A DNA stretch of 64,000 nt from Marsupella aquatica (Eukaryota > Plantae > Marchantiophyta). This document shows positions 30,901 to 53,540 of the stretch, one piece after another. Position 1 is the first letter of the stretch; every line of letters begins with the position of its first letter. Position numbers and translations under genes: made by a program. Below the pieces are notes generated by a model, which searched no databases, was not told the origin of the DNA, and worked only from the letters and a program-made list of their open reading frames with translations. The stretch is taken from NCBI GenBank assembly GCA_973895155.1, contig OZ316891.1, forward strand, positions 4,136,018 through 4,200,017, read 5' to 3'.

Positions 30901-33397
30901 GCAAGAGAGAACTGCATCCGAATGGCACCATTAAGGATGACAAAATGACAGAAAACTCTTTAATGTCCTAATCTTTAGACAAGAGACAAGCTAGGAATGA
31001 TCGATTATAAACAGTATACATAGAAAATCAAAGAGCTAGGTATGGACTAGACCACAGGCTCCGTCTGAAGATACTCGGAGAAGTATGGTTGGGTTGATGC
31101 ATCTCCCCTTGCATTCATGAAAAATCAATAATTTTGGGACTCGATTTCATTTCAATGATGCCTAACATGTACTTCGGGGTGGCTAGGAGGACATGTTCAC
31201 GAAACCAGTCCTAGGGACACTGTTAGATCCCTAGGGAAGAAAACAACCAAACACAACCAACTGAGAACAATGCTATGAGATAATCTGTAGTTTGCACAAT
31301 CTGTTTGAGTTTGGGAATTCATACCTCTCCCGTCAATAACCCCACATAGAAGTGAACATGGTTGTCAAGGCCACCCAAAGCTAGTAAGAATGTCTGCTGG
31401 CTGCCAGGAAGCGCAGTCAGTGACGTAGCAACCATGGGTCTTGAGCCCACAGGTATTGATTGTAGGAGGGAAATACTGCAGTCACCTGACTCGCAAACAA
31501 ACAATATTGTTTCAACTTAACGACTAGGCCCTTCGCGAATCAGAAACTAGGACACAAATCTCCGTACTCCAAATTGCCCAAATCATCTTAACAGTGAAAC
31601 CTTTATGTCAATCAGTCAACCTAATCCATTCACGACCTAATTACCCTTAGATCAGCTCCAATTGCACAGAACGGAAAGTGCAAAAGCTAAGTTGCAACTG
31701 GCTACTAGCCTAATCGTGTTAGAGGTAAGAGAGTACGTCAAAAAAGGTTGGAAATTCCTACCCTATCACCAAAGTAATGGGGAAAAAACACGTAAGCCTC
31801 ACCATTACCTTTTGTAGGCAAAGAGACATTCCAAATTCGAACACATGAATCTGAAGAAGTTGAAGATAACAGAGCCAGTGATGGTGAAACCATGTAGGCA
31901 GCTATGCACGTAACGGTTCTCTCATGTGCTTTTGGAAGTTGAGCTGCCATCCTCCACTGAAACAAAGCAGTAAGACAGGTGCTGAGCAACGACATGCGAA
32001 TTATTGGTCAAGATTCCCAACTAGAGAAATCAACCAAATCAACAATCTAGCACCTAAACCAACTGGCTTTGCTCAGTTGGCCAGAGGATGAGCCTAGAAC
32101 CGAGAGGTCCCAGGTTCAATCCTCCCTCCACACATAAGGGGTGTGGAGGGTATGTGTGTGTGTGTGTGTGTGGGTGGGGTGTAGTGGTGGGAGTATTGAT
32201 TATCTCCTCAGCCCTGGTTGCCCACTTTGGGTTCTGGTTTAATCCTCTCTTCCTCCTGGTCTGGGTCCCTGTCGATTCCCTGGGTATTGTCCCCTTGTGG
32301 CTGCCCTACATAGAAATGCATGCTCCCAAAGCAGGACGTCTATCCTCAGTTGGATGGGCCTGCTTTCGGTTTTCAAGGCAAAAAAAAACAATCTAGCACC
32401 TACTACATTGTACAGAGTATGTGACATGTAGAGGAGCCGGAAAACTTATTGAGAGTGTCTTGACTGCAAGCTTACATTGGCGGCTACTTTAACTGGATTG
32501 GGATTCGCTAGTCAATTCACTTCTTCCAGGTTATTCCGGGAGGAGCAATTGAACAAGAACACTCTGCAGAACAGTACCTTACTCTCGACCGATGAATATG
32601 CCCACAAAATGATGGCTCCATCTGCACTCCCAGAGAGTAAGAAGTGCTCGCTGGTCGACTCATCTGCATTGCCCAGCATCAGTTCCAGAAAACCGATGCG
32701 CTTGTCAACGAATAGAAGTCGTAAATTTGAAAGAACATATTTTCAACGGTACAAGCTGTAAACTCCATATATCCAAGGCAGCAAAGTAACACTACAAACG
32801 GAGGGAATTAATAGATAGAACAAAAAGAAAAAGTACCTGGATAAACTAGATTACTGACAGGGAGCCACAGGACACAGTTAACAAGGTCCTTATGGCCTGG
32901 AAGGGTCACCAAAATTCTGCTTTCCTGAGGTCCAGTTCCAGTTTTATGACAGCTATTAATTGAACTCCAACTTTGCCGACTATTGTGATATACACAAAAA
33001 TAAATGAAGCTTATGCAGAAGGGTAAGGTAGCTTCAGAATCAGAAAAACCTAAACCCTAAACCCTAAACCCTAAACCTCGAAACGTTCCTTCAAACACGG
33101 AAACGTATCACAGCAGGTGACACTTCAAAGCAGTCGAGCACACAATTGACGTACCTGAGGGGAAAAAATTGCCACAGTGTTGTGAGCTCCAAAAGCGACC
33201 AAATTGCAAGGACCCCATGAGACAGCACCGACAACCCTATTGCATCCAATCGCGATGAACGCCCTTTCTACTTCAACAGACACCTCAGCCAACGCTCCAA
33301 ATACTGCCTGCCTCTCCATGTGATCATGCCCTTGGTCGCCCTCCAAAATCATGCCTTCGCCCTCGTTTCTGAACAGCAAAGCCGTGTCCTGCTGCAT
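27915..33397 (-). CDS. ELP2: Elongator complex protein 2 (WD40), ~10 exons, with a chimeric N-terminus derived from the ALP1-like gene
   Basis: ELP2-type motifs FIAIGCNR, GHQDWIRAVDF, LLLGHEDWVYSVRW, LSASMDRSMMIW, ALGFFGG, HGHDLNC, YVSGAEEKVARVF, ANMSALGLSQKP, TLWPESHKLYGHGNE, AHKRIIW. GT-AG introns (e.g. exon 1 ends 33155; exon 2 32924-32837). Start uncertain: in-frame ATGs at 33397, 33352 and 33319 all lie in the duplicated segment. Confidence 0.93.
32057..32386 (+). mobile_element. tRNA-derived SINE, copy 2, antisense within an ELP2 intron
   Basis: Same body as copy 1 with a longer (GT)n tract; A-box-like TTGCTCAGTTGG, B-box GGTTCAATCC, poly(A); 16-bp TSD AACAATCTAGCACCTA (32041-32056, 32387-32402). 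Confidence 0.9.
33046..33077. repeat. Short interstitial plant telomeric (CCCTAAA)n tract / telo-box cluster in ELP2 intron 1
   Basis: AAACCTAAACCCTAAACCCTAAACCCTAAACC. Confidence 0.8.
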
Positions 33398-33869
33398 TGA
33401 TTCATTGATGACAGAAAGCCCCAGCTTCCGTCATTCTCAGACCTTGTCTCTCGTTCATGGAATCCAAATTGCTCTGCCCCAGAAATCCCTTCCAAAAGGG
33501 AATGGGAATAAGATGCTTCTCTCTCAACCATACCCTCTCTCAAGCCAAGATTACCACCACCACGACTGAACTTTACTGGCGAGCGTTAAGATATGCTCGA
33601 TCATATCTGAGGTCCGGATGATGCTCCTGGTGCTGCTGACGGAGATGATCATTTTGATGAATTGATCTCGCCTCTGTTTCATTGTGCATCACACCAGAAT
33701 TGTCGCTTCCATACTTGCCTTGTAATTGATCTCCACCCCGTTCCCCACTCTCCTCTCTATCCCTGTCCGGAGCCACATCAAACGGCCCGTCCTCCGTGTC
33801 ATCCATTCTCTTCCAAATCTCCTGTCCCTCCTCTGCCTTCCCCCTCACAAATCCGGCACTAATATTCCA
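33286..33869 (-). repeat. Inverted copy of the ALP1-like 5' region (36574-37156) forming the 5' end of ELP2
   Basis: Reverse complement is nearly identical to 36574-37156, with scattered substitutions and two small indels. The ORF track shows the same peptides on both (MVEREASYSHSLLEG, MQQDTALLFRNEGEG). Confidence 0.95.
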
Positions 33870-36800
33870 CACCTCAATTAGTGCGACCAAAAGTGTGACT
33901 TCTTGTGAATTGTAATTTGTGTGACATATAAACTAATGTGAGACAAAAAAATGTAAAGGGCTACCCAATTAGTGTGACTAACACTAATTGCAGTGAAGAG
34001 TGTAGTCAACATATTATGCACAGAAAAAATTACGGACTACTAAATTCATAATACACAAGCTTTTTGATAATAGACCCCCCAGAGAGTCACAGTCTAGAGG
34101 CTTCACTCTAGAAACCTAGAATTGAACTCTAGCTTCTCATCAAGATTTGTAATAGATAACTTTTTTGCCATAAAGATTGGATATATGTCATGACCATAAG
34201 TCACTATAGAGGCAGTGAAACAAAAACAAAAACTAAACTTTACACAACCCATCATTTGCAACTTTATAACTTGGAGTTGCCCTATTAATGACCATTGATG
34301 CTTTTGCCAGAGTTGTTTTTAGTATCATCTCCAAACATTGAACTCTAGCCTATGGTTTAAAGCATTTTCTCCAATTCCACCTAAAGTTGCACCTAAAATT
34401 GATGTCCTTGTTTGTCTCTTGATTGGTTTCACTCATCAGAATTTTCAGAGTGGGTGGGAACACTATCCTTGTTTATTTCTTCACTGGTTTAACTAATCAG
34501 GACTTTCAGAGATCTTGGGAACACTATCATTGTCTGTATCCTTGTTTATCTCTTGATTGGTTTCACTCATCAAGACTTCTAGAAAGGGTGAGAATGAACA
34601 GATATAGCAAGATGATCTTGGGCTTTCCAAGTCGAGCTGCAAATGACAAGGACCCCTCAATCCCCCTTTTATGACATGCTTTGGTCTCCCACCACTTAAA
34701 CGGCCACTAGCCATATAAAAGGGGGAAGTGTCCAAGACTTGTCCTTTTTCACTTTCCTCTCATTCTTCTCCTCCAGTTCCATATTGCTCCACAAATTCAG
34801 GAAATGATACTGTTTATGGTGAAACCTGGTGGACCAGGTTTTTGTCATGGCTAGTGGTGGTTCAAGTGGCAAGGGGCCCTTTCCTAGCATAAGTCCGGCT
34901 AGAGACATTGTGGTATCAGCTAAAGCCCAAACCCTCTTAGCACAATAGATTCCTTTGCAGAATAGAAAACATTTATGCACCTTGCTTATCCCACCCTAGA
35001 TATTCATGTTATGCCCTTGGTGCCATCAAGACATATGGGTGTAGGGCAAGCACATACAATTGCTCAGACAATTTGTGCTATATCTGGGGCTTGAATGGTA
35101 AACAATATCAATTAACAAATACTTGTGTTTGCATCTTGTTGAAAACACCACTGTTCTTTGTTTTGACTAGAAGTGGTGATGTGGGTGCACTTGGTGATTC
35201 TGGAAAAGAAATCCATGGGGTTTGAAACTAAAACTTATTTTGGGACGCATAATCATCAAGTCACGGGTCCCAAGCTCCCATGGACCACCAAAATATGGTC
35301 CACCGGAGCATTGTGTACAACATGGTGGTTCATTATGGCCTCAAACTCAAAATTTTCCTATGCTTCTCATTTGTAAACGATAGTTGTAGTCTTCACAAAT
35401 TATTTTATTTTGTCTCAAAAATTGAACTATGAATGGAGACAATTTTCCTGAGGATTTCATATGAGTGTGTTTGATACTTGTGTGCATTTGAAACCGGTAA
35501 ATAATGTTATCTTTGGGTTTAGGGTTTGTGTGTATTTGAAATAGATTTGAGATTGTTAAATTCAAGCACTACTTAGTGCACTGTAAGGTAAAACACTCAT
35601 TGAGGGTCAGTTTAGAGAATTTTGTGTATAGAGAACGGGATAGAGAACAATAGGGACTTGAAGGTTGGTAAGCTATCAATGATAGACACAAAATAATTAT
35701 GCTAGGAAGATAATTGCAAGGTTCAACATGAGTGATAGCAAGTGAGTAATAAGGGAGTGTCACAAATGCTCACACTACTAAGGGCTAGGTTCCATGGGGC
35801 ACATGTGTGTGAGCATGTTTGAGCCAATAAGTTCACAACTTTTCCGGGGAGTGAGGAGTGTATAAATACGGTAATAGGATTTTCCCTCACATTGGGGTGC
35901 CTTGGATAGTGACACTTGAAGTGCATTTTCATTGGCTCTAAAGTCAAAACTCATACATTTAAAATATTGTGTACACCTTGGCATAGGGTGTATTTGGGCC
36001 CCAGGGGTGTGGGGTGATTGTTACTCCCTGCCCCTGGCCCATGGAACCCTGCCCTAATAATAGATACCTACAGAGCACAAAATTCCATCGGGAGAAAATC
36101 GACACCAATGAATTGGAAACGATGAAGGATGGCCGCTTCAAGAGCAAAGAAACAGAACTGGTAGATTTGGACTCAGCAAAGAGCACGGCATGGAGTCGGA
36201 ATGACAATTGCAATGCAGGGCTCACTTCTTCCAATAGAACTGTGCTTGCCACTCTACAAAGTACCCGAACACACATAGATTTGGACTGATTCTTCTTTGC
36301 GAGAGGAGCTTCTGACTAACACCACCGGCAAAGATGGGTTCACTCCAATTCTCTTAATTGACCGGCAAAGATGAATTCTCTCCAGTTCTCCGATTTGAGC
36401 AAGTCGTCGAAGTCTTGGACTTCATGGGCCCCAATTCGTAGACTCATGGAGTGAGATTTCATCACTTTAAAGATTTTTTTTTCTGGATTAGGTTATTAGA
36501 AAGACCCGCCAGTTGTGTGCAACAGGACTAGTCAATTCCTTAATATCAAATTGATCGTGGATTGATTATGCTCTGGAATATTAGGGCCGGATTTGTGAGG
36601 GGGAAGGCAGAGGAGGGACAGGAGATTTGGAAGAGAATGGATGACACGGAGGACGGGCCGTTTGATGTGGCTCCGGACAGGGATAGAGAGGAGTGTGGGG
36701 GACGGGGTGGAGATCAATTACAAGGCAAGTATGGAAGCGACAATTCTGGTGTTGCACAATGAAACAGAGGCGAGATCAATTCATCAAAATGATCATCTCC

Positions 36801-36909
36801 GTCAGCAGCACCAGGAGCATCATCCGGACCTCAGATATGATCGAGCATATCTTAACGCTCCCCAGTAAAGTTAAGTCGCGGTGGTGGTAATCTTGGCTTG
36901 AGAGAGGGT

Positions 36910-38445
36910 ATGGTTGAGAGAGAAGCATCTTATTCCCATTCCCTTTTGGAAGGGACTTCTGGGGCAGAGCAATTTGGATTCCATGAACGTGAGACAAGGT
37001 CTGAGAATGACGGAAAGCTGGGGCTTTCTGTCATTAATGAATCAATGCAGCAGGACACGGCTTTGCTGTTCAGAAACGAGGGCGAAGGCATGATTTTGGA
37101 GGGTGAGCAAAGACATGATCACATGGGGAGGCAGGCAGTATTTGGAGCGTTGGCTGCCGCTGCGCTGGCCATCAATGTGGCCCTGCAATCCATTTCGGGA
37201 GTAGGGAGCGTTGCCTTGAATCCCACCACTGCCGACTCTTATTTAGAACACAGGAGGTTTAGAAAAAGGAAGCGGAAGAATGATGATGAAACTGTCTTCA
37301 TTCCTGCCGTTCTCAGCACATTTGCAGATGCTGAGGCCATGGCCTCCTTCTATGTCACTGACTCATCTCCCAAGAAAGACCACCCCTTCTTGTTCGATGA
37401 CTATGACTGGTTTCTAAAACCCAGATCCAGGAGGTGGTGGAGAAAACTATTTCGAGTCTCAAAGTCAACTTTCGATTACATCTGCCAGCTTGTGAAGCCG
37501 GACATTGAGTCTGACACCCCTGCCTCTTTCCAAGGGATCGAGGGAAGACTAATCACTGTAGAGAAGCAGGTGGCTATTGCGCTGAGAAGGCTGGCATCTG
37601 GAGACTCTTTATCCATCCTGGGGGATTTCTTCGGAGTGGGAGAGTCCACCGTTTCCAAAGTGATCTGGAAGTTTGTCAATTCCATGGAGAAGAGGGCAAG
37701 ACATCACATGCAATGGCCAGAAGGTGCAGAAATGGAGAGAGTGAAGACTGGATTCGAGGTTGACCATGGTTTGCCGAATTGCTGTGGAGTGATCGACTTA
37801 ACCCACATCCTCATGGAGCTGCCAGGAACCGACGCCTCCATGGCTTGGGTCGACAGGGAGCAGAATTACAGCATGCTCGTGCAAATTGTTGTGGATATGG
37901 ACATGAAGGTAAGAGACTTGTTCACCGGTTGGCCGGGAAGGATAACAGACTCACGTCTATTCCGAAACTCTGGATTCTTTGCAGTCTGTGAAAGTGGGGA
38001 TAGGTTGAGTGGTGCATCTAGAACGGTGCAGGGGATTGAAGTCCGGGAGTATATTATTGGGGACTCTGGTTATCCACTGCTGCCGTGGCTCATCAACCCA
38101 TACACTGCAACGGCGTCATCTCCCAGTAGGGACACATTCAACACCAAGCATGCTTCAACGAAAACCGTGGTGGAGGATGCTTTGGGGCGGTTGAAAGGAG
38201 CCTGGAAGATTTTGCACAAGGTGTCGTGGCGTCCAGATATCAGGAAGCTGCCCAAAATTGTTCTCGTGTGCTGCTTGCTGCATAACATCCTCATTGAGGC
38301 CGGAGAGGAGATGGAGGAGGGAGTGGCCCTGGTTGGCCACCATGACGAAGGCTACAGGCAACAGTGGTGTCTCTCTGCGCAACCAGAAGGGCACCTCATC
38401 AGAGAAGTATTAGCAGGGCATATTTTTGCCAGCGATCAACGTTGA
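36910..38445 (+). CDS. Harbinger/PIF transposase-derived nuclease, ALP1-like (HARBI1 / DDE_Tnp_4 family), intronless
   Basis: Motifs FRVSKSTFDYIC, VEKQVAIALRRLASG, CCGVIDLTHI, TGWPG, IGDSGYPLLPWL, LGRLKGAWKIL, WRPD.RKLP.IVLVCCLLHN, GHHD.GY match the ALP1 clade as I recall it. First ATG at 36910 (track ORF opens at TTG 36898). No TIRs seen. Confidence 0.9.
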   Translation: MVEREASYSHSLLEGTSGAEQFGFHERETRSENDGKLGLSVINESMQQDTALLFRNEGEGMILEGEQRHDHMGRQAVFGALAAAALAINVALQSISGVGSVALNPTTADSYLEHRRFRKRKRKNDDETVFIPAVLSTFADAEAMASFYVTDSSPKKDHPFLFDDYDWFLKPRSRRWWRKLFRVSKSTFDYICQLVKPDIESDTPASFQGIEGRLITVEKQVAIALRRLASGDSLSILGDFFGVGESTVSKVIWKFVNSMEKRARHHMQWPEGAEMERVKTGFEVDHGLPNCCGVIDLTHILMELPGTDASMAWVDREQNYSMLVQIVVDMDMKVRDLFTGWPGRITDSRLFRNSGFFAVCESGDRLSGASRTVQGIEVREYIIGDSGYPLLPWLINPYTATASSPSRDTFNTKHASTKTVVEDALGRLKGAWKILHKVSWRPDIRKLPKIVLVCCLLHNILIEAGEEMEEGVALVGHHDEGYRQQWCLSAQPEGHLIREVLAGHIFASDQR

Positions 38446-39630: not shown

Positions 39631-41748
39631 CTACGACACAATAAGGCGGAGGAGTTTCCCTGAATATTTAAACGACAACTCGGTCTGTTCTAAACAATGA
39701 TCCTTCTCTTCTCTCGTCCATTCCTGCCAGGCAAAAGGTATATCAGGAAACAATAACTAATTCCCAAACCCCACTTCATTCAATCTACATCTGGTTGAAC
39801 TGATAAAGATTTATAAGTAATATGCAGATTGGAATCAAGAAGATCACGAAGCCAAATGAATGCATTTTTCTTGTCTGCCAAAATCTCAGGGCCTAGAATG
39901 TTGCTGACAGACGGTCCACAGGCCAAGCAGGAGACTGGACATGAGAGTGCCAAGTATACCTCTGCTACTTTGTTCAATTTCTCCTTCACATTAGCTAACA
40001 GCGTTTGAAGGTCTCCCTCCCACTTGTAGAACTCCAAAACCTTACCATCTATTACTGTATCGGCAACCTGCATTCCAATTGCCAACATTGAGATCGGGTA
40101 CAAAACTTGAAACAAAATTGACAATGAAGCCCAGATTAGGGTCGGAGGCGCTTGCGGGATAATGAGGTATGGTTTTCAAGCAAAATTACCTTTTGTCCAA
40201 TGAATTTTCCTCCAGCAGAGTGTGCAAAGTAAACGTTGTAAAAATGGCAGATGAACGCTGGAGGATCATTTTCTGACAGATTTTTCAACAGCTCAGCATA
40301 TGAGTTTCCTTCATCCCCAACTGGTGGGATCTCATGACCTTCACTCGCGAACCACTCCAAATCCTTGGCCAGACGGGCAGATCGTTCGAGTCCAGTATCC
40401 TGAAATTCTGCATCTGTTACAATTTTGAAGCAACCCAATAAATTTTACTGTGGGTTCTGCCGGGAGCTGAAGACAGCCATATGAAGGCAAAGCAATGTCT
40501 GGCCCTCAAATGACCTGGACTATCTTTGACACATTTTACAACAAGAATTTGTCCCAATTTGCAAGTTTCTTCGTGGACTCTCAATTAAAGTTTTTAGAGT
40601 CATACTTCGAAGGCCAAAACTGATTACCAACAACAAGTGTATTTTCGCTCTCCAAGATGAAGCGCTAGTGCAACGTTTTCTCTACTCCGGTCATATGCCG
40701 CTTTGTACCCTTTACTCACTGAAAACCTTCAACACCCCTCGATTCTGCGACTCTAGCTCCACCGAGCCATTCATTTGAGAGGAATGAATGGAATTTATAT
40801 TCACCGAGTAATTAATTCGAAGAACGTGAATCGACTCCACATCCACCGAGCTATTCATTCGGAAGGATGAATGGAGGCTATTCCTACCGAGGCAAATTTT
40901 TCGGAACGAACGAATGGAAACATACAATTCGGAGTCCAGAGAGAACCAATCGGACCGAAATCATCCGCTGATTTAAACGAGATTGAACTCTTCGCGCAAC
41001 GCGATAGCGAGTCTATATCCTCTCCGTCAATAGCAACCGGAGTATCATTCCAGTCTATCCTCTCTTTGCGCTTTCAGTCTTCACAAAATCGTTCGCTCTG
41101 TCACATTCCCCCATTACCGTGCGGTCAAACACTCTGATCGTCAATCGATTGCTTCGTTGATCGTGAACATGGCATGAACGGAATCATATCTCGGAAAGGA
41201 AAATTGAACCTGAACTTACAGGAAGGGTGAGCAGCCGTTGCAACAATCTCCTCCAAAGTGTCATAGACCTTCTTACTGTTGACCAAAAACTTCAGGTACC
41301 CTTCAACAGTGGGTTGCCACTTAGCCACCGGCTGCACATCCTTGTCCTCCTTCTCACCTTCTTTGGATTGGTCCTTGGTGTGCAATTTCATGGCCACGAA
41401 GCGCATTTCCTCAACGAACCCCTTCGCTTCGCCAGGGTACCGCTTCTTCTTACTAGAAGGCATCACTGGCGTGGCAGAATCTGGTCCCGCCCGGACAGCC
41501 ACACCCACCGAAGAGTCTCCAAGCCCAGCTCTAGAGTTCTCATGGATTCCGAAATCGGCCCAGCCATGGCTTTGCTGCACCCGTAGAGCCCCCACAGATG
41601 AAGTTTTTTCCCCCGAATTTCTTCGCAGAGCGGTGGGTTTGGAGGAGGCCTCCACTCGCTTGGATGCCCTAAAATTGCCAAGCCCACTAAATCCCAAGCC
41701 CAGTCCCACCGCTGTCTGCTGCACAAGGTCCCGTAAGGAGAACGCCAT
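39631..41748 (-). CDS. HO1: Plastid heme oxygenase 1 (HY1-like); exons 41748-41220, 40413-40190, 40067-39960, 39723-39631
   Basis: KGFVEEMRFVAMKLHTKDQ, WQPTVEGYLKFLV, TGLERS..LAKDLEWF, AFICHFYNVYFAHSAGG, LEFYKWEG, WTREEKDHCLEQTELSFKYSG. All introns are GT-AG and the joins are in frame. Confidence 0.95.
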
Positions 41749-43907
41749 TGGCTGGCTAGCTGGCTGGTAACCTCTCTAGGGAATTGCTTCAATCAAAATC
41801 TGCCAGTAAATTGCCTGAAATCAGATTCCGGTACTGAGCCTACCGGATGGTGCAGAGAGGGGCTAAAAATTGCTCGCGACAGGATTGCCAAGAGACAAAC
41901 AGGGGAAATTAAGCACTGGACTAGACACTGCTGCTGCAAAATCAGTCAGATCAATCCCATCCAATTTCTCCACAAGGCCAACAGATTCACCGGAGAGGGG
42001 GACAGCTTCCGAATTTAAAAGAGGCGACCACAGAGATGGTGGTTCTAGAGAGCTGCAGGCAACCTACATGCGCAACAGGACAGTCTTTGAAAGGAGACGA
42101 GAGCTCACAAAATTCTATAGATAAATCAAAAGCCCGTGCTGCCTCGTCTTGCAGTCTCGCTCGCTTCCTGCAGACACAGCAGTAAGTTGCCGTAATCACC
42201 TACCAACTCGACGAGCAAGGAAGCAGGCAAAATACCAGCACCGCAAGTTTTGAGGCCCCTTTGCTTCCACAAGCTCTCAATCAATGCACTAGGGAAGCTT
42301 CTCAGGCTTCTGCTACAGTAGTCTAGTACAAGTGCAGTGGAGCCTAAAACAGACGGAGTGATTCGTTGCCAAGTTGCCTTGAAGAGAAGGAATCTCAGCA
42401 GTGGCTCCGCCTTCCAAAGCCCGAAAATGAACGAATCAATGAATTCATTTCCCACACACTACGGTCCCGTGTCGTGGTGGGCAATCACGTCTCCCCCAAC
42501 CACATATTCCTACTAACGACAAGCTATAATCCCCAACAATCCCAAACAGCAGAACCTAGAACCCACAGTCCCACACTATCCGAACTGCACCGTCACTAGG
42601 GTTTTCGGGCTCCGCTAAAACCGCTGACTGCGGAACTCCTCCGAACATCCGGCTATGGCGGCAAAGCACCATAAGGCATAAGCATTCTCCTACAGGTATC
42701 GTGGAAGTTTCACTGCGTTTTGATTCAACATGGATGCGTCTGAACTACACATCCTGGACTGCCCCATGAGCTCTTCTCACCGCCCATCTCCAATCCACAA
42801 ATCAATCTCCAGAGAGATATGAGTACTGCGGAATTGTAATTGTTAGCGTGGGTCCAAACTGGGCAAAGTACAGTAGGGCCGCAATGACCAAAACAGGGTA
42901 ACCCTGGTTAAAGAAGGCAAGGACTGCGTTGTCCCGAAAATCTCGGGGACTGCAAACGATATGATTCTGGGTTTGGATTTCTGAGAATAGTTTGGCCCTA
43001 TCTGTGGTCCAAGCACTACTGCACTCGCTCACTCACTGACCAACCAGCCTTCCCTGCTTGGAACACGCCTAGCTCCTCGTCGGCCTTCCATCGCTTTGAG
43101 CCAGAGAGAACGTTGGTGTGAGGTGTTTGGCCACTGTTGCTCACCCTGACCCTGGTGTAGTTCTTCTCAGAATTTTGCCCTGAGTCATTTCTGGATCGAA
43201 TGAATTGTCGGCGTATGGAATTGAAGCTAGATTGAGCGCTTTGCGGTAAGTGTAGGAGAAGGAATTTCGAATTTAGAGCTTCTAGAATTGGAGTTGATGT
43301 AACCCATTGGAGTCCCCAATTCTTTCGCTCTTGAGTGAACGATGGAAGTGTCTACTCACTTAGGACTACGAAACAATGCTTTCATGCTGAGAGTTCTGAC
43401 GTTCAGATAAAGAAGGTGGATGCACTTACTCGAAAATGTGTATTCGAAGAGAGTGAGAATAGTTAAACTGAGAGCATTTTCTGTCACGGTATAAATAGCA
43501 GCATCTCTGATTGTGTGTCGAGGTTACAGCTCGGAAGTGACTTTGACATTGACTTTTCTCAAGTTTTATGTCCTGATCTACCGCTGCTGACAAGTTATAT
43601 AATTCTAGCTGTGCTTACTATTATCCCTCTAGAACAATGGAACTGTTCTGTTGATGATGGCACCATCGTATCACACTTCACAGTCGGTACAATTAGGTTC
43701 GCATGTGTGCAAGAAGAGCTTTCTCGAAACAAGATCTAAAGCAAATGAGGTGGGGAACAACGAGCAGCAGTCAATTCTGAGAATGAGGAAGATTCTGATA
43801 ATGAACGTTGGTTCGCGTCCTTCTTATCGATCATCGATCATTTCGGTTACCATACATTGAATTTTAAGTTACCATCGCAGGTCATTACCTCCTACGCATG
43901 ATGTTTC

Positions 43908-44540
43908 CGGCCTTAGAAGGCGGAGCCACTGTGGCGATCTCTTCTCTTGTTCTAGGCTCTACTGTACTGAACTACTGTATCTGAAGGCTGAGGAGCTCGC
44001 GTCGTGCTTTGATTGAGACCTTGTGGAAGCAAAGGGGCCTCAAAACTTGCCGTGTTGTCATGTTGCCTGCTTGCTTGGGTCGTCGAGTTCTCGGTCATTA
44101 TGAATCCCATATATTCGTCTCAAATGAATGCCTCGGTAGATCACGCAACTCACTGTTGTGTCCGCAGGAAGCGAGCGAGACTCTCAAGAGAATAGACAGG
44201 TGGGGCCTTTAATTTGTTCAAAGAATTTTGCGAGGTCTCATCTCCTTTCACTGGCTTTCCAGTTGCTCGCATTCAGTTTGCCTCTCTAGAGCCACCCTCT
44301 CTTTTGGATAGCCTGTTTTAATCCTTGTCTCGGAAACTGTCCTCCTCTCCGGTGAATTTGTTGGCTGTGTGGAGAAATTTTCATGGGTTTGATTGACTGA
44401 TTTCGCACCAGCAGTTTCTAGTCCAGTGCTTAATTTACCCTGTCTATCTGTCGGGGGAGTCCTGTCGAGTAATTCTTATAACTCTGCATCATCACGTAGC
44501 CTCTTTGCTGGAATCTGGTTGTTGGCAATCTGAGTGCTGG
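43908..44540 (+). repeat. Third, CDS-less copy of the HO1/Der shared 5' leader
   Basis: Aligns with the reverse complement of ~41800-42420 (GAAGGCGGAGCCACTG..TTGTGGAAGCAAAGGGGCCTCAAAACTTGC..GCAGGAAGCGAGCGAGACT) and with 49300-49585. Similarity stops shortly before the position of the ATG. Confidence 0.85.
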
Positions 44541-44865
44541 AACCCTCTGGTGTTTTGGTCACGAGAGCACGCTGCAAAGAATCATGTCCTCGACAATAAT
44601 TGTGAAATAAAATGTTAGTTTTTCGGTCGAATGCGTGAGAAGCAGGCGATACGATATCCTTTGAAGTTTTCCTTTAAAACCCTTTGGATCACGTGATGCG
44701 TGGAGGAGCGAGGACAAGAGGCACGCCATTGTCTCGATGAATAGTGTACCAAAAGATTAGGTTTTTGTGTGGTCGTCGGAGTTCCTATATCTTCTGGGAG
44801 ACACAATTTCATTACCATCAATTCAATCACCATTGTTCATGATCTGATAAGGGCGGGCTTCGACG

Positions 44866-44935
44866 TGTTCTGTTCTGTTCTGTTCTGTTCTGTTCTGTTC
44901 TGTTCTGTTCTGTTCTGTTCTGTTCTGTTCTGTTC
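44866..44935. repeat. (TGTTC)14 microsatellite
   Basis: Perfect pentanucleotide run ~145 bp upstream of the ATG at 45080. Confidence 0.95.
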
Positions 44936-45079
44936 TCTCCCTGATTGATTTATTGATCTTGGCCCTCCTTATTTCAGGTGACGAACGAGTTACGGAGAAC
45001 AAGAGTGCCGTGAGTCTGTGTTTCTCTGTGCGCTCGCTCGCAAGCAAGCAAGCAAATTGTGCTTGATTGGCAGGAGAAG

Positions 45080-46453
45080 ATGGCGGGCCAGCAGATTGCC
45101 AAGCGAATTCCCCGGATCAAGTTTCCCGACCGCCGTGCAGCTGCTGCTGCCGGCTCTGGTGCTCCACCTCCGCCAGGTACCACTCTCTCCCTCTCTCTCT
45201 CTCTCTCAGCACTACCGTAGAGGCAGAGTATTCACTTTCCTGTCATGCTTTGTCGATGCTTTCATCGTCCGAAGGCTTCAACGTAGCCGCATTCCTGCTC
45301 TTCTCCCCTTCCATTGAGGGACTTCGTGTTGGTAGGCGAGGCAAGGCCGCCCGCTGATACGGAGAACTTCCCTTTTTACGCTCTCATGTTGGTTTGTGAG
45401 TGCGTTCGTCGACCTCTTTTCTTGACAGCAGGTAGACTTGTGCGGTTCTCATTGAATGTATTTTTGAATGGGGTCTCAATTTCGACTTCACCGCGAAGAT
45501 TGCGTTTTCTATGACTTGGCTCGTGATCTATCACGTTCTTTACACAAGTAGCGTCAATCCAAGCTACAATTTCACCTTGCCATCTAAAGAAGTATGGCTT
45601 GAATAATGGTTAATTCGTCAGTTCCGTCTCTGCAGTCTAGCGATTCTTCATTCATTGGATTTACTTGCACTAGGGTAGCATTTGCGATAGAGTTGATGTG
45701 GTTGGTATCCAATTCTGTCAATGTTAGCTTCAGTGATAGGCTACTCTTCAGGAATTTTGAATATGCCTTGAAAATCTCTTAGGGAGAATTCAAAACGGAA
45801 GAGAAGGTTTCTTCATAAATAGAGCTCCTCGTTTGCTCCTTCTCTGTTGTAAAATTGTACATAATAACATCCACAAGCTCGGATGTTGCGTCCATATGAA
45901 ATAGTTTGCGGTAGATGCTTTCATGTATAAGTGATAGGTAAATGGAAGACTCGAGTTACAGTGCTGGTGAATGAATTTGTTCTCTGATGTGCCAATAAGA
46001 GCAATGTCAGTGATTTGTAATTTGGTTTCGTATAAATGCACCTGTTATCAAAATTGTAGTTCAGAGTTGTCCTAATTGGAGCTCACGTGTAGAGCTGCTG
46101 ATTGTGCATTGATTTGTTCTCAGCAAGTCAAAGCGTTCCCAAAACTTCAACAGCCCCACCAGCAAGTTCAGCAAGTTCGGGAAGTGTTGGGGCTGCTTCA
46201 ATTCAGCCAAGGCGACCCAAAGTCTCGAAAGAAGAGATTGATGCCGTGCTGGTACTGTAGTCTGCCCCCAATAATAACATGACCTTTTAACGTAAGAGTT
46301 TAGTTTCATATCTGGTTAGGTTCTCCGTATCAAGCTCACAACCAAGAGTCTGACTGGTCTAGGAGTATCGAAGAAGGTGACTTGAGCGACGTGATATGAG
46401 TATTAAACTTCGAGTTTTATTTTTGTTTGCAGCTTGGTGGTGTTGTGTATTGA
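45080..46453 (+). CDS. Small mitochondrial KGD4/MRPS36-like protein (2-oxoglutarate dehydrogenase adaptor family), 81 aa; exons 45080-45176, 46124-46251, 46433-46453
   Basis: Spliced product MAGQQIAKRIPRIKFPDRR-(A/S/P-rich linker)-SIQPRRPKVSKEEIDAVLLGGVVY*. The N-terminal P.IKF and C-terminal S.EEI..V.LGG motifs are typical of the family. GT-AG introns with consistent phases. Confidence 0.8.
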
Positions 46454-49400
46454 TGTTGGATACCCATCATTTCCTCCGGCAGGGAGCTTAGCTTGTATTT
46501 TGCTAAGTATGCAGATGAGCAAGCAATAAAGTTGTTTTCAGGTGTGCCCATGTTAACCCTTCACTCCCTTTTCAGAGCAAGCACTTAGTATTCCACAGTC
46601 TGCCACAGAAGATTTGATTCACTCTGGGTTTTACGTCCTCTCTAGGCCGAATACCCACATGTTTCACTGCAGCAGTAAACCACATGGTTCACCGAAAATA
46701 GTTATTTCGTGTCGTGGATTAAGGGACCACCATCCCAATGTAATGAGTCACTCATTTCATTACCTGTCTGTCAATGAGCTCTGTATGAATTTGTGATTCT
46801 CTATGCATCATGCCAGTCAGGAGATGGCTCGAGGATGGACGTTGGAAATGCTGGACAGCAAGTTCAGAGCTATATATAGCCGCTTTATGGGGATGATGGT
46901 TTTTGAATTTATCACATCTTGTGTAGTGCACTGTCAAGCATCGTTTAGTGAAATCTGAATGACCTGTGGTTAGAAAGAGATCCCAGGGATTTAGTCACTA
47001 TGGTTGTGGCGATGTCAGACAACCAAATATCATGAAGTCAGTGTCGTTTAGGAGTATAACATGTTCCGAGTTATTCCCGATGTTCTTTGCACACATTCCT
47101 TTTTGTACTACTTTGTCGCAGTTAAAGCGGATTCCAGACAATAACATAGAAAACTCTCCATTTGCACGATCACAATCAACTAATCTATAGATGCTCTGCC
47201 TTGAGTTTTAAAAGACCGCTGACGTCTTGATCACAACAAAAGCGCGTCAGACTAGTTTTGAATACTCTCCATTTGCACTATTTTCCGTAAGGCACACAAA
47301 TCATAAATGCTTTCAAGTTGATCTGCAAGGAGTGATGATTTTATCAGCAACATGAATGAATTTCAGAAGATCCAGCTCGTGGAACTTGCCATGGCTTGCT
47401 ACGGCACATCGGTGTACAGCTTCAACACCATCCAGTTTCTTCAAATGTACATTCCACCAATCGAAGAAAATACTTGATGAGAGAGAATAATGGCAGATGC
47501 GACGACACGTGAAAAACTATCAGACAAGCTGGAAAGCCTTTGAGAGTTCTTGAAATCTACATTCCACCAATCAAAGTAAAAAAAAATTAAGATCGGTGGC
47601 AGAACGAATGATGGCAGATGTGAACAAACCTGGAAAATCGAGAGCGCAAATCTATACTGTCAGTGATATGACCGAAGATCTCTGAATTTGAATGAAATTT
47701 ATACCTTAATTAGGGAGACCCATACAATTCCGAGGGATAAACATGGAATCACAATTTTGCTAGATTCAGTAAAATTTGATAGGAATGATGACAGATTCTG
47801 AATTCATAAAAGTTGCCGGCACTTCTAGGACAACGCTATAGGGCAGGCCTGTCTTCACACTTTTGGACGATGTGGCCCAAATGTAACCTGTTAACTGTAT
47901 GCTAAATTACCCTTGCTAAGATCACTTCTTGTTCCTAAAATATATTGAGATCTGTATTGGGCTAAACCAGTTTCCAAATCAACACAGCCAGAGTTCAAAT
48001 AGTAAATTCAATGTGTCACACATTTAAATGGCATTATATGCTACATCTCAAACCCGTGCACTCAAGACATCTGTTGCCAAGCGCAAGTTTGCCATGTGCT
48101 GACCCGGCCATGATAGCTTAGACTTTTTTGACCACCATGGTCTTAACATACGTATTATATATATGGAAGCACCTAGCCCTCTTATAGAATACTAGTCATT
48201 TGGATGCCATTCTACTGCATTTGGTTCACAATCTTTGTAGGTACATCAATATAGTGTAAATTATTTTGGCCTTCAACTCGTTGTCCTTGCACAATGTTAA
48301 ATAAAACCAAACATGTATTATATTCCTTCCCAGCATCAAAGTATACATAAGGAAAGGATACACAAATCAATCCCACTACACTTTGGTTCAACATAACGGT
48401 GGCTGTGGCTGCATTAGGGGATCTCAAACCTGAAGTCCTGCAAAAAAAATCCTTGGCTCAAAAGCACGAGTTATGGACTTTGGTCACAAGTGGTAGGAAC
48501 AAGCTTGAGTGAGTCCTCCACTTTACTTCTCAGAGAACCTGCGTGACCGCCAAAACCCAGTGGTTTGAGCACCCAACTATGCCATGAAGACTAACCCATG
48601 AGTTCTACTCACTGCCCATTGCCAATCTATAAATCAATGAACTGTGGCATTCTCCACAACTGGCAGCGTCAGGGTCAAACTGGGTCATAGTATAGTAAAA
48701 TGGTGTAGTTGCAATCGGGACTACCAATGTGTAAGCCCCCCCTTCCCCCCCCCTTTGCGGCGGCAGCCTGGCCTGGGGGTCATGAGATTTTGTAACCTGC
48801 CTAGAGGGTTAACCAAGTTCAGGCACAATTTTCAGATCATAAGTAAACTTACACTCTGGGCTTATGCTGGTTATAATTCATGGCCACTAGGGTTTAGAGT
48901 TTAACCACCAAACAACCCCCACCCACCCCCCCCCCCCAATCCCCCGGGGCGGGCTCACTGCTCTTGGGGATCCCCTTGGGGCCATGGATTACCCTACACC
49001 ATAACCCTGGTGAATAGGGCAATTGTGGGTTAAGGATAGCCAATGGCAATAGGAACTCGGTCACAAGTCAATATTAACCTGTATACGAAATGGAGGATGG
49101 GGAGGGGTTCATCATTAATTCTATTTGAGAAGAAAAGCACCTTAGTAATGTAATATACGGTAATTGGAGGACAAATTAGTAAAAAGCTGTCTCTGGGATA
49201 CTTTTGGCCCTCTCTGTACAGTAGACTCAATCACTGACCAACCAGCCCTCCCGAGTGTGTCTGTCTTGTCTCTATGTCTCTCTTTGCTCTCCCATCGCAA
49301 TCTCCTTTCACTGGCTGTCCTGTGGGCTGTGGCTTCACCTCTCCCTAGAGCCACCTTCTCTCTGGAACCTGTTTTGAATCTTCTTTCGAAAAGCTGTCCA

Positions 49401-49652
49401 TGCTCTCTCTTGTGATTTGTTGGCCCTGTGAAGAAATTTTGGTGGGATTGATAGACTGATTTCGCACTAGCAATGTGTAGTGCAGCGCTTGATTTCCCAT
49501 GTCTGGGGAATCCTGTCGAGTGATTCTTATCGACTCTCGGCATCATCAGGTAGCCTCTTTGCTGGAATGTGAGTGTTGGCAATCCACTGGTGGATGTTGA
49601 TCGAAGCAATTCCTTAGTGAGGTGACCAGCCAGCCAGCCAGCCAGCCAGCCA

Positions 49653-52600
49653 ATGGCGCTCTCCTTAGGGGAGCTTGTGCAGCAGAAGGCGGTGGGACTG
49701 GGATTTAGTGGGCTTGGCAATTTTACCGCATTCCGGGGAGTGAGGGCCTCCTTGAAACCCTCTGCTCTGTGGAGCAATTCTCGGCAAAGAATTTCGTCTG
49801 TGGGGGCTTTACGGGTGCAGCAAAGCCATGGCTGGGCAGATTTTGGAATCCATGAGAACTCTAGAACTGGACTTGGGGGCTCTTCGGTGGGTGTGGCTGT
49901 CCGGGCAGGGAAAGGGACTGAGGAAGATGCTGACGATGATGATGATGAACCCCTATCGAAAGAGATGCTAGAGCAGGAGGCAGCTCGTGTTGCGCAACAG
50001 TACGCCCGATCTGTGGAGGAAGAGCTTCGCCAGGGTGAGCCTCATGACTTTTTATGTTCGTTTGTCGATCGTGCATTCTTTTATTGGAGATTGTACGCCG
50101 ATTCCTTGGAGTATCCTTACCTGATGAAGGTTTTAATATGTTTCTCGCTAAAATAAATGAATCATTCGCCAGAGGATGAGGCGGAAGCTTCGGGCGGAAA
50201 GAGGAAGAAGAGAGGACGGAAGGGAAGCTGGGACGAGGGAAGCGAACTGGACGTTCCAGATCATCTCCTTCCTAAAGTGGCCATTGTTGGGAGGCCAAAT
50301 GTAGGAAAATCAGCTTTGTTCAACCGTCTGGCCGGGGTGAGTTTCATATCGCATACCTGGGTGGACCTCGTAATCAAGTTTTTTGTCATGTGTGTGGTTT
50401 CGACAGTAAGCTTGCAATTTCCACTCTTTCACTGATCCTTAGTGGTACAGGGTGATGTTGCAATTGTACATGATGAACCAGGTGTGACTCGCGATCGTCT
50501 ATACACTCGAGCTTTTTGGGGTGTGCATGAGTTTCTGTTGGTCGATACTGGGGGCGTTTTGACAGTCCCTTCATCTTCGAATATGGGTTCAGATGCACTG
50601 GCTATCACCAGAGGTGGTGGCTCAGATGCAGTGACTCAAGCATTGAAAGAGGCAGCAGCTGCTGGCCTGCCGTCTTTGATTGAGAAACAAGCAGCTGCTG
50701 CTGTGGAGGATGCTTCTTCTGTCATCTTTGTGGTTGACGGCCAGGTAAATTGCTTGCCTGTTGATATCTCACTGCTTTGTAACGCTGTAATCGTGACACT
50801 GTATTTAGTCTGGCGCTCTTGAGCAGCGGATGCTTTTGTTGAGTGTCTTTTTCTGGTCTTCTTAGAGTTCTGAGTTTGCTGCATTCGGATCAGTTTTCTC
50901 TCCCTCTCCAGGCGTAAGAATTCTTTGGTTCGATTTTAGTCGAAACTAGAAGACGAAGGCTCATCATACCTGCTATTCATAGATTCAGAGCTTCTAACCG
51001 CGTTTGAATTTAACAGGCTGGTCCCAGTGCAGCAGATACTGATATTGCGAATTGGTTGAGGAGGAAACACTCTAACAAAAGGATAACGCTAGCAGTAAAC
51101 AAGTGTGAATCACCAACCAAAGGGCGAATCCAAGCAGCCGAGTTCTGGGGTTTGGGGTGAGCAGGCAGTCTGTTGCAATTGTTTTGTGTATACGTTCAGC
51201 TGCCTTCTTCAGTTTTTTTTAATTGAAAGCTTAGAAATTGATTGTTTTCTGAAATGTACTCAAGATCTAATGTATTTCCAGGATACTGGAAAATAAAAAC
51301 ACTTTTCTTCTTGCTGTAGACCCCATGCCCTACATAGCTTTGTTTATCTTCACCGATGTTTTTTCCAGAAGAAATATCACTCGTTCCTTTTTAGCAATTT
51401 CTATGAAAGGGTAATACGTGAAAGCAAAAGAAGTAATTGAAACAAGGAAAAAAGGCTAGGGGAAAGATTATGTTGAAATCTGATGGCAAAGATTTTTGCC
51501 GAGCAAAACAAGGCAGCTTTTGGATACATGTTGAACTTACTTTTCTTCCCAGTAATTTTAAAGTTTTCACTCAGGGTCTTCCGTGTACTAAAGACAATAT
51601 CCTACATGTATCTTGGGATCAGGTTTACTCCTATTGCCGTCTCTGCAATCTCTGGCACTGGAACTGGAGACTTGCTGGACAGTGTCTGCTTGGAGCTCCA
51701 AACACCGAAGGTATAAAGGAGGTGGCTGTTTGGTTTGACGAAAAGAAGTTTGGGTTATTGCTGTGTGTAGTCCTGAATTTTGAGTATCTTAGGATAGGTA
51801 TTCCAGTTATTTATGGGTTTTCTTGTAAGTGAAGGTGCCAGACGATTTCAAGGAGGAAGAACGGCCTCTGGGTATCGCCATTGTTGGTCGACCAAATGTT
51901 GGAAAAAGTAGCATATTAAATTCGTTGGTCGGTGAGGATAGGACCATTGTCAGTCCAATAAGTGGAACTACACGAGATGCTATCGATGCTGATTTTACTG
52001 GCCCCGATGGACAGGTTGGTGGTATCCCCTGCCTAGCAATACATTATTGTACAGAATCAAGATTTGTGAGGAACCTATGCAAGTCACAGGTCTATCTCAA
52101 AGCTACATTCAAGTCATACAACGAAATAGGTCATAGTACTAGGTGTTCAATCCGCAAGGTCCCAGGAAAGCAGAGAACATATATCTTAGTTTTCATTCAG
52201 GTCCTTGAAGTTTCAAATTTAGGGTTTGTCTCATGTACGAGGATCTCAGAGCAAGTAAATTATGGCATTTGCAGATGTACCGTCTTATAGACACAGCTGG
52301 AATTCGGCGGAGAACAGCTGTTGCATCTGCTGGTAGCAGATCAGAGTATCTTTCTATTAATAGGGCATTTAGGGCTATACGACGCTCTGATGTAGTGGCG
52401 CTTGTAATTGATGCCATGCAGTGTGTAACAGAGCAGGTAAATTGGATTTTCTCATTTTGTCATCTATGATACATATGTTTGGTATTGTTGTTGTCAATTG
52501 TCAGGGATAGAGTATATCGTTCAGACGGTCTGATGTCACCTAGAGTATGAATGGTATGGTCTCGATTCTCAATCTCGAACTTCGAGACTCAGAAGAGTGC

Positions 52601-53540
52601 CGAAGGAGGTGCTGACTGCTGTGGTGTGGGAGTGCATTTTAAGCAAACAGCGTACAAATTCCACGGATATGGAGAGAAGCACAGTTACCAGGGCTGATGT
52701 TGAGATCTGTAAATGATGGCAGGATTTCAGACTAGGTGAGAGAATTGAGAAGGAAGGGAAGGCTTGTGTAATCGTGGTAAACAAATGGGACACAGTCCCT
52801 GATAAGGACTCTATGAGCACTTACTGGTACGACCGAGATGTGAAAGAGCGGTTGCGTGGGCTTAACTGGGCACCAATCGTCTACACTTCCGCCACAAGTG
52901 GGCAGCGGATTGAAAGGTGACTGGACCAGATTATTTGGAGCTCTTATTTTGTACGGGGAAAATTGAACTGCGCACGACCCTTGGATTGTACTGACTTGAT
53001 GTGTTTCCAGGATATTGGAGACTGCTAGTGCGGCTGGGAGGGAGAGGTGTCGAAGGTTGACAACTGCTGTCCTTAACCAAGTGGTAACAGAGGCTATAGC
53101 GCTGAAGCAGCCAACTATAGGCCGTGGTGGCAAGAAAGGCAGAATATACTACTGCACTCAGGTTGGTCCTCCTGAAAAGTTTCATTGCCGATTTGTGTTT
53201 TTCCCCGTTTCTCAGTGATTTCTATGCACCCTGATTTATATGCGGAGAACGTTGTTGTAATCCAATTGTGTGCACGGCTAACACCTTTAACACCTTTTCC
53301 ATAAAATTGTGACAGGCTGCTATCAGACCCCCAACCTTCGTCCTTTTTGTGAATGATGCCAAGTTGTTTCCAGAGCTATACCGCAGATACATGGAAAAAC
53401 AAATACGAGCAAATGTTGGGTATCCTGGCACTCCAATTCGAATACTCTGGCGGAGTAAAAAGAAAACTGAGAGAGAATATCCCTCTAGGAATGCTCCTTC
53501 AAGATCCCCTGCCTATGCTTCTAGCTCCCAAAGATATTAG
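49653..53540 (+). CDS. der: Plastid ribosome-biogenesis GTPase Der/EngA; 10 exons (49653-50034, 50173-50336, 50451-50744, 51017-51156, 51623-51710, 51835-52014, 52275-52436, 52723-52916, 53011-53161, 53316-53540)
   Basis: Two G domains (GRPNVGKS twice; GVTRD/GTTRD; DTGG/DTAG; NKCE/NKWD) and a C-terminal KH-like region ([24 protein letters not shown]...GTPIR). Confidence 0.95.

What the first reader, a model, noticed from the sequence alone, without database searches (positions are those of the whole stretch)
41485..49910. Two unrelated plastid proteins (HO1 and GTPase Der) share a homologous transit peptide and 5' leader
Seen: the first 88 aa of HO1 and 86 aa of Der align at 67/86 identical residues (counted by hand), and homology ends abruptly at VAVRAG. 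In the 24-codon block [25 protein letters not shown] count 4 synonymous and 0 replacement differences. Similarity extends ~350 bp upstream of both ATGs (..CCAGCCAATGGCG). The genes diverge from each other ~8 kb apart. Known: both families are plastid-localised in plants, and transit peptides normally diverge quickly. Inference: one gene replaced its leader and targeting peptide with its neighbour's by inverted duplication, and the shared module is under purifying selection or gene conversion.
Basis: partly seen in the sequence, partly recalled or inferred. Interest (0 to 1): 0.85.

Follow-up and report, generated by a model that had tools for sequence, protein, structure and literature searches.

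The report
Gene borrows neighbour's chloroplast address tag
In a leafy liverwort, the gene for a chloroplast ribosome-assembly protein (Der) begins with a flipped copy of the front end of the nearby heme oxygenase gene instead of the unrelated front end its relatives have; the copy likely now serves as its chloroplast address tag, and a second gene pair close by shares a front end in the same way.

Summary
Real and confirmed. HO1 (minus strand, ATG 41748) and Der (plus strand, ATG 49653) share an inverted 610-bp module (77.5% identical): about 350 bp of leader plus 86-88 codons (67/86 residues). The window is a leafy liverwort near Calypogeia fissa. C. fissa HO1 has this peptide, while C. fissa Der has an unrelated one, so HO1 is the donor and Der's own front end was replaced, inside an exon, almost exactly at the predicted cleavage site. 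Der is otherwise intact (659 aa, 94% to C. fissa). The copy kept its frame and its distal 38 codons are conserved at protein level; over all 86 codons selection is not significant (omega 0.54). Gene conversion is not supported. Donors are ancestral neighbours; Der lies elsewhere in four other liverworts. Borrowed transit peptides are known for genes newly moved from organelles; replacement in a long-established nuclear gene by local inverted duplication was not found in my searches. Expression and import are untested.

The parts
39631..41748 (-). HO1 (plastid-type heme oxygenase) coding span, 4 exons, 317 aa; donor gene
   Evidence: exons 41748-41220, 40413-40190, 40067-39960, 39723-39631, GT-AG; mature part 206/229 identical to C. 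fissa HO1; Pfam PF01126
41485..41748 (-). HO1 predicted transit peptide, 88 codons (donor copy)
   Evidence: 60/75 identical to the N-terminus of C. fissa HO1; aligns with Marchantia and Riccia HO1 at both ends
41749..42426 (-). HO1 upstream leader (donor copy of the non-coding part)
   Evidence: 41749-42097 matches Der upstream; 41810-42426 matches the middle copy
42980..43054 (+). short element shared in direct orientation with Der upstream; candidate promoter or start-site piece of the middle gene
   Evidence: score 52 against a maximum of 35 in 200 shuffles; a 17-base word occurs only here and at 49231 in the window; function inferred
43904..44530 (+). third copy of the HO1 leader, inverted relative to HO1, lacking ATG and transit-peptide codons; probably inside a 5' intron of the middle gene
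   Evidence: 71% over 601 columns to HO1 upstream, 77% over 299 to Der upstream; no continuation after 44530; intron inferred from splice-like sites near 43246 and 44977
45080..46453 (+). small 3-exon gene, 81 aa, between HO1 and Der; resembles mitochondrial KGD4/MRPS36-type proteins by recall only
   Evidence: spliced model open with GT-AG anchors; no Pfam hit on either exon, no Atlas hit
49192..49252 (+). direct copy of the 42980-43054 element in front of the Der leader
49301..49652 (+). Der upstream leader, inverted copy of HO1 upstream
   Evidence: 267/332 identical, 14 gaps, 11 not a multiple of 3; six upstream ATGs, all closed before the main ATG
49653..49910 (+). HO1-derived predicted transit peptide of Der, 86 codons; junction at about 49910 inside exon 1
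   Evidence: 67/86 to window HO1, 56/75 to C. fissa HO1; unrelated to C. fissa Der N-terminus
49653..53540 (+). Der (EngA-type plastid GTPase) coding span, 10 exons, 659 aa; recipient gene
   Evidence: 9 of 9 introns GT-AG, one stop, 520/553 identical to both C. fissa Der proteins; TIGR03594 on the orthologue
33286..33878 (-). second case: inverted copy of the ALP1-like front end fused to ELP2 (ELP2 candidate ATG 33319)
   Evidence: 573/591 identical to 36565-37156; ELP2 identity from PDB Elp2 hits, E 2e-41
36565..38445 (+). ALP1/HARBI1-like DDE gene (name recalled; Pfam DDE_Tnp_4) whose front end 36565-37156 is the donor in the second case
   Evidence: Pfam PF13359; 349/438 identical to Riccia fluitans R1flu_001353, which has the same MGRQAVFGALA start motif

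Best explanation
Der in this liverwort begins with an inverted copy of the leader and first 88 codons of the nearby HO1 gene, joined in frame inside exon 1, and this copy likely replaced Der's own transit peptide and likely imports Der into the chloroplast. Shown: homology, orientation, intact frame, donor direction, and that the join falls within two codons of the acidic stretch where orthologous Der sequence resumes. Inferred: Der came to lie near HO1 after the split from Calypogeia; a local DNA-level rearrangement (break repair with template switch, or a staggered-break inversion) copied HO1's front end onto it; the product survived because the copied piece was a whole leader, start codon and targeting peptide ending at the predicted cleavage site, which an essential plastid protein needs. 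A later direct duplication probably gave the third, non-coding copy. The same kind of event happened again more recently between the ALP1-like gene and ELP2.
For: Donor: the 86-aa module found 1 protein among 343 candidates, C. fissa HO1; of 240 fetched N-termini only that one matched strongly (E 3e-28); both C. fissa Der proteins and the Marchantia, Riccia and moss Der proteins have unrelated N-termini. Intact recipient: 659 aa, 520/553 to C. fissa. Coding constraint: 0 frame-shifting gaps in 258 coding bases against 11 in 332 upstream bases (p 0.0035); codons 49-86 have 7 synonymous and 2 replacement differences (Fisher p 0.0015), where 9.4 replacements are expected on the Der branch alone if neutral (p 0.004). 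Composition is transit-peptide-like (S+T 16%, 9 basic, 3 acidic). Derived position: Der and HO1 lie on different contigs in C. fissa, Marchantia and both Riccia species, whereas HO1 and the ALP1-like gene have consecutive locus tags in R. fluitans. Junction: one contig of run X1 spans 48468-54500 with no difference, and a contig of run X4 (another study) spans 40931-42116 with 32 differences. Plant DER is plastid-targeted by an N-terminal peptide and essential in Arabidopsis (PMC3883289, passages).
Against: Over all 86 codons selection is not significant (omega 0.54, interval 0.27-1.13, p 0.10; Der branch p 0.20); codons 26-48 evolve at omega about 1.1; the distal block was chosen after seeing the data. 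The Der leader holds six upstream ATGs against two in HO1. No remnant of the old Der peptide was found between the genes (8 of 8 tests within shuffled range), so the inversion route is unproven. X1 may be the sample the window came from, and no contig from the second study was shown across the Der junction. In runs X3/X4 one of four listed differences in the HO1 copy changes a residue next to the predicted cleavage site. No genome was available, so a second Der gene with the old peptide cannot be excluded. Only one close outgroup genus fixes the direction and date.
Confidence: 0.8

Rival explanations
1. Promoter capture with a passenger peptide: this Der is an extra copy that took HO1's leader for expression; the peptide is kept only in frame, and a parent Der with its own peptide exists elsewhere.
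For: Whole-module omega is not significantly below 1; 7 residue changes fall on the Der branch against 4 on HO1, 8 unpolarised; the third copy and the ELP2 case involve no targeting function, so front ends are copied here regardless of targeting.
Against: Distal 38 codons are constrained on the Der branch; the join sits at the predicted cleavage site; mature Der is as conserved as mature HO1 (94% and 90% to C. fissa); there is no other N-terminal extension to do the targeting.
Confidence: 0.09
2. A transposon (Pack-MULE or Helitron type) picked up HO1's front end and dropped it in front of Der and the middle gene.
For: Three copies exist; a repeat lies just upstream of Der (about 48470-49100, many loose-ended contigs); a DDE-family gene lies 4 kb from HO1.
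Against: No terminal repeats flank the copies among the 25 longest of 41 inverted pairs or in the self-comparison; all copies are within 8.5 kb of the donor and inverted relative to it, twice over; the DDE gene is a conserved, syntenic gene (80% to Riccia), not a young element.
Confidence: 0.07
3. Ongoing gene conversion between the inverted copies keeps the two peptides alike.
For: Identity rises to 92-94% in the last 90 columns before the junction; codons 1-25 have a low synonymous distance (0.085).
Against: Synonymous distance in the most conserved part (0.27-0.29) is no lower than upstream (0.23); the longest identical run is 28 bases in 632 columns.
Confidence: 0.03
4. Assembly artefact.
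For: The region holds several local duplications.
Against: Copies differ at 14-23% of sites with many gaps; contigs of run X1 cross both junctions without a difference and one of X4 crosses the HO1 side.
Confidence: 0.01

Closest known systems
SODcp-RPL32 of Malpighiales (Populus, Viola): plastid rpl32 using the transit peptide of Cu-Zn superoxide dismutase (PMC8429499, passages)
   Same: An unrelated plastid protein uses a pre-existing transit peptide from another nuclear gene.
   Different: There a gene newly moved from the plastid, with no peptide, inserted into an intron of the donor and is alternatively spliced or later duplicated. Here a long-established nuclear gene lost an existing peptide, the join is inside an exon, and the donor piece was copied in inverted orientation 8 kb away with its leader.
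Inverted duplications at inversion breakpoints made by staggered breaks (Drosophila; PMC1885836, passages)
   Same: Inverted copies of unique sequence, of similar size (median 321 bp, up to 1.9 kb) and divergence (about 88%), with reuse of the same region.
   Different: Most such copies were judged non-functional; here one appears to supply a start codon and targeting peptide. An inversion of the intervening DNA was not shown here.
De novo gain of transit peptides (PMC7456531, passages; PMC10375062, passages and section 9)
   Same: Concerns how N-terminal targeting peptides turn over in plants.
   Different: Those surveys found small insertions, deletions and new start sites dominant, no alternative-first-exon candidates, and no donated peptide among Sileneae synthetases; this is a whole-peptide swap.
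Plant DER (NbDER, At3g12080; PMC3883289, passages)
   Same: Two GTPase domains, acidic stretch after an N-terminal peptide.
   Different: The peptide here is homologous to that of HO1.

Membership tests
Plastid Der/EngA GTPase | Two tandem GTPase domains and C-terminal KH-like domain; TIGR03594 | tested here: met
   C. fissa orthologue 460 bits, cut-off 307; window model 520/553 identical to it; MMR_HSR1 on three exons
Plastid Der/EngA GTPase | Plastid localisation of the protein | not testable with these tools
   shown for NbDER in PMC3883289; no predictor or assay here
Plant heme oxygenase HO1/HY1 | Heme_oxygenase domain and orthology to MpHY1 | tested here: met
   PF01126; mature part 175/225 identical to MpHY1
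Chloroplast transit peptide | N-terminal, hydroxylated and basic, few acids, ends in a V-x-A-type cleavage motif (motif recalled) | tested here: inconclusive
   S+T 16%, 9 K/R, 3 D/E, ends VRAG; composition only
Chloroplast transit peptide | Directs import and is cleaved | not testable with these tools
   needs GFP fusion or N-terminal proteomics
Recruited pre-existing transit peptide (SODcp-RPL32 type) | Peptide homologous to that of an unrelated gene, donor fixed by outgroups | tested here: met
Recruited pre-existing transit peptide (SODcp-RPL32 type) | Recipient newly transferred from an organelle and lacking a peptide | tested here: not met
   Der is nuclear, with introns and an N-terminal extension, in liverworts, mosses and algae
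Recruited pre-existing transit peptide (SODcp-RPL32 type) | Join through an intron or alternative splicing | tested here: not met
   join at about 49910 lies inside Der exon 1 (49653-50034) and inside HO1 exon 1; RNA not seen
Staggered-break inversion with inverted duplication | Inverted copy of unique sequence | tested here: met
Staggered-break inversion with inverted duplication | Intervening segment inverted relative to an outgroup, displaced old end retained | tested here: inconclusive
   no remnant of the old Der peptide in 8 of 8 scans; no outgroup DNA available
Pack-MULE or Helitron gene-fragment capture | Terminal repeats or element ends and target duplication around the fragment | tested here: not met
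   none seen around the three copies; Helitron ends were not searched for specifically
Pack-MULE or Helitron gene-fragment capture | Dispersed copies elsewhere in the genome | not testable with these tools
   no genome held for this window

The most novel reading that the evidence does not exclude
In this liverwort lineage, relocated genes repeatedly gain a working front end by local inverted duplication of a resident neighbour's leader, start codon and, where needed, transit peptide: Der from HO1, ELP2 from the ALP1-like gene, and perhaps the middle gene, at least two separate events of different age in 25 kb. If genome-wide, this is a general route by which established genes swap targeting peptides and regulation, and it would explain why transit peptides of orthologues so often look unrelated.
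Probability: 0.25. Interest if true: 0.85.

Novelty: new variant of a known kind. Interest (0 to 1): 0.62.

Why it matters
Transit peptides of orthologous proteins usually cannot be aligned, and surveys credit small changes and new start sites for their turnover. This locus catches a whole-peptide replacement in a gene that is essential in Arabidopsis while the donor is still recognisable and 8 kb away. It offers a natural swap experiment (does a peptide evolved for a stromal enzyme suffice for a nucleoid-associated GTPase, and which half stays constrained), links the regulation of phytochrome-chromophore synthesis and plastid ribosome assembly if the leader is functional, and shows the same rearrangement twice in one region.

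Tried and rejected
No whole genome is held, so copy number of the module and of Der was not tested. No RNA holder listed; this says nothing on expression. Contig depth was flat over the HO1 module and the Der exons in run X1 and high over 48518-49018, but depth there is no copy number, so it is not used as evidence. A closer look at the Der junction in the second study's contigs was not obtained. Metagenome scans: 0 relatives among 594 pattern matches for Der exon 1; 1 of 596 for exon 3, a 26-residue match at 69% (L001), not examined. Remnant of the old Der peptide: none by tblastn or frameshift-tolerant scan, 8 of 8 negative, while the positive control scored 138 against a shuffled maximum of 42. 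Riccia ALP1-like residues 1-172 alone do not match the duplicated segment significantly (2 and 4 of 40 shuffles reach the score); the match rests on the motif at its end. Middle gene: no Pfam hit on 2 of 2 exons tried, no Atlas hit. A weak Pfam CKS match (E 0.01-0.02, below cut-off) in both peptides is taken as chance. The first three-way alignment was partly out of register and was redone; order of the three copies is not resolved (HO1-only 34, Der-only 27, middle-only 15 differences). Marchantia neighbours of HO1 and Der: 0 papers name the six gene ids tried. Whether ELP2 and the middle gene are newcomers was not tested. Earlier findings: nothing for this genome or sequence.
Full report
Observation. 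HO1 lies on the minus strand (ATG 41748, four exons, 317 aa) and Der on the plus strand (ATG 49653, ten exons, 9 of 9 introns GT-AG, 659 aa). A self-comparison of the window aligns 41486-42097 with 49909-49301 in inverted orientation over 632 columns at 77.5%. Similarity stops at the VAVRAG codons.

Organism and gene identity. The best hits are Calypogeia fissa proteins: mature Der 520/553, mature HO1 206/229 and 203/229; Marchantia and Riccia are further away (Der 449/550 and 443/550). The window is therefore a leafy liverwort related to, but not the same as, C. fissa. Der is confirmed by TIGR03594 on the orthologue, HO1 by PF01126 and by MpHY1 being the next hit.

Direction. The 86-residue module found one protein among 343 candidates of 152-2000 residues, C. 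fissa HO1 (word-based, so weak for absence). Against the first 150 residues of 240 fetched proteins only that protein matched strongly. Marchantia and Riccia HO1 share the first ten residues' pattern and the motif at the end of the peptide. Both C. fissa Der proteins, and Der of Marchantia, Riccia and mosses, have unrelated N-termini. Orthologous Der sequence resumes two codons after the shared block, at the acidic stretch. HO1 is thus the donor and Der lost its former front end; the swap is almost exactly peptide for peptide, taking V-R-A-G as the cleavage site (motif recalled, not tested). The join lies inside exon 1 of both genes, so it is not intron-mediated shuffling. An 11-residue segment present in both window copies is absent from C. 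fissa HO1, consistent with the event post-dating the split.

Is the copy functional? Upstream, the copies differ at 65 of 332 sites (distance 0.227) with 14 gaps, 11 frame-shifting in size; the coding part has one gap of 6 bases in 258 (p 0.0035). Synonymous distance over the 86 codons is also 0.227, replacement distance 0.123, omega 0.54, bootstrap interval 0.27-1.13, Fisher p 0.10: not significant as a whole. It is uneven: codons 26-48 have omega about 1.1, codons 49-86 have 7 synonymous and 2 replacement differences (p 0.0015), against 9.4 replacements expected on the Der branch alone under neutrality (p 0.004; whole module p 0.20). The partition was chosen after seeing the data. With C. 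fissa as outgroup, 7 of 19 residue differences fall on Der, 4 on HO1 and 8 cannot be placed. Conversion would lower synonymous distance where identity is high; it does not (0.27-0.29), and the longest identical run is 28 bases. Against function: six upstream ATGs in the Der leader, all closed before the main ATG, against two in HO1. Expression and import were not tested.

(1) A third copy of the leader at 43904-44530, inverted relative to HO1 and direct relative to Der, extends the HO1 match to 42426 but lacks the ATG and peptide. (2) It precedes an 81-residue, three-exon gene at 45080-46453, probably within a 5' intron; its likeness to mitochondrial KGD4/MRPS36 proteins is recalled and was not confirmed. 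(3) A 60-75 base element at 42980-43054 recurs at 49192-49252 (score 52, maximum 35 in 200 shuffles), which suggests a direct duplication of a promoter-plus-leader unit. The order of the three copies is unresolved. (4) A second, younger case: 33286-33878 is an inverted copy of 36565-37156 (573/591) and gives ELP2 the start motif of an ALP1-like DDE gene (the ALP1 name is recalled). The Riccia orthologue has that motif, so the DDE gene is the donor.

Synteny. In R. fluitans the ALP1-like gene and HO1 are R1flu_001353 and R1flu_001354 on one contig, as they are neighbours here. Der is on another contig than HO1 in 4 of 4 species compared (C. fissa, both copies; M. polymorpha; R. fluitans; R. sorocarpa, from contig lengths and locus tags). 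So both donors are old residents and Der is the likely newcomer. Whether ELP2 is also a newcomer was not tested.

Reality of the sequence. Contigs of run X1 span 39500-42272 and 48468-54500 with no difference, crossing both junctions; X1 may be the source sample. A contig of run X4 from another study spans 40931-42116 with 32 differences. Of four listed differences in the HO1 copy (from 40 shown of 506), three are synonymous and one changes residue 84. No contig from that study was shown across the Der junction.

Mechanism. I commit to a DNA-level local inverted duplication, made during break repair when or after Der moved next to HO1, that fused HO1's leader, ATG and peptide in frame to Der; selection then kept it because Der needs plastid import (essential in Arabidopsis and targeted by an N-terminal peptide in tobacco; PMC3883289, passages). 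Staggered-break inversions produce such inverted copies, of this size, and reuse regions (PMC1885836, passages). That route predicts the old Der front end between the genes; 8 of 8 scans found none although the control worked, so the exact route is open. Transposon capture is less likely: no element ends were seen and all copies are local and inverted.

Comparison with what is known. Use of a pre-existing transit peptide is documented for genes newly moved from the plastid, such as SODcp-RPL32 (PMC8429499, passages). A 15-genus survey found small insertions, deletions and new start sites dominant and no alternative-first-exon candidates (PMC7456531, passages), and recently gained peptides on Sileneae synthetases had no donor (PMC10375062, passages and section 9). 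This case works like SODcp-RPL32 but fails two of its features: the recipient was already nuclear with its own peptide, and the join is not through an intron. Searches (listings only, open-access library) showed no report of this locus or of such a replacement by neighbour duplication; some searches served background. Subscription papers and supplements were not seen and may hold examples. HO1's plastid location is recalled.

Verdict. A real, well-polarised transit-peptide replacement, with a second front-end capture nearby: a new variant of a known kind. Confidence 0.8 in the main reading, interest 0.62; 0.85 if a genome-wide scan shows the process to be general (probability 0.25).

Noticed in passing
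window 33286-33878 (-) and 36565-37156 (+): 97% identical inverted duplication that puts the front end of the ALP1-like DDE gene on ELP2; two small gaps shift the upstream frames, so ELP2's true start (33319 or an in-frame ATG further up) is unclear.
   Followed up: partly
window 25535-27300: Decayed direct copy of the ALP1-like upstream piece (36628-36726, 88%) joined to a copy of 38760-40343 that holds the broken 3' half of HO1 (73-85%); a further local duplication.
   Followed up: partly
window 36637-37122: The ALP1-like gene seems to have a degenerating acidic N-terminal extension: Riccia has 173 residues before the shared motif, while here the frame is interrupted; similarity of that part alone is not significant.
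   Followed up: partly
window 40758-40823 and 44080-44140: A 60-base piece in HO1 intron 1 matches, inverted, an insertion found only in the middle copy of the leader (score 69, shuffled maximum 30); possibly a small mobile element.
   Followed up: partly
window 48470-49100 and 42757-42806: Repeat-like segment upstream of Der with many loose-ended contigs; a 50-base relative lies between HO1 and the middle gene.
   Followed up: no
window 13975-14165 and 16267-16454: 190-base inverted repeats (81%) 2.1 kb apart, like the ends of a non-autonomous DNA transposon.
   Followed up: no
window 24191-24511 and 32057-32391: Two 92% identical copies of a 330-base element, one inside an ELP2 intron.
   Followed up: no
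window 6500-7250, 8390-8900, 24800-25040, 26310-26660: Short tandem arrays with units of about 89, 83-112, 17-18 and 85-87 bases.
   Followed up: no
window about 55990-61030 (-) and 2694-5018 (-): Exons that read like a fumarase gene with an organelle presequence, and a bHLH-like gene, by eye from ORF lists; names recalled, not searched.
   Followed up: no
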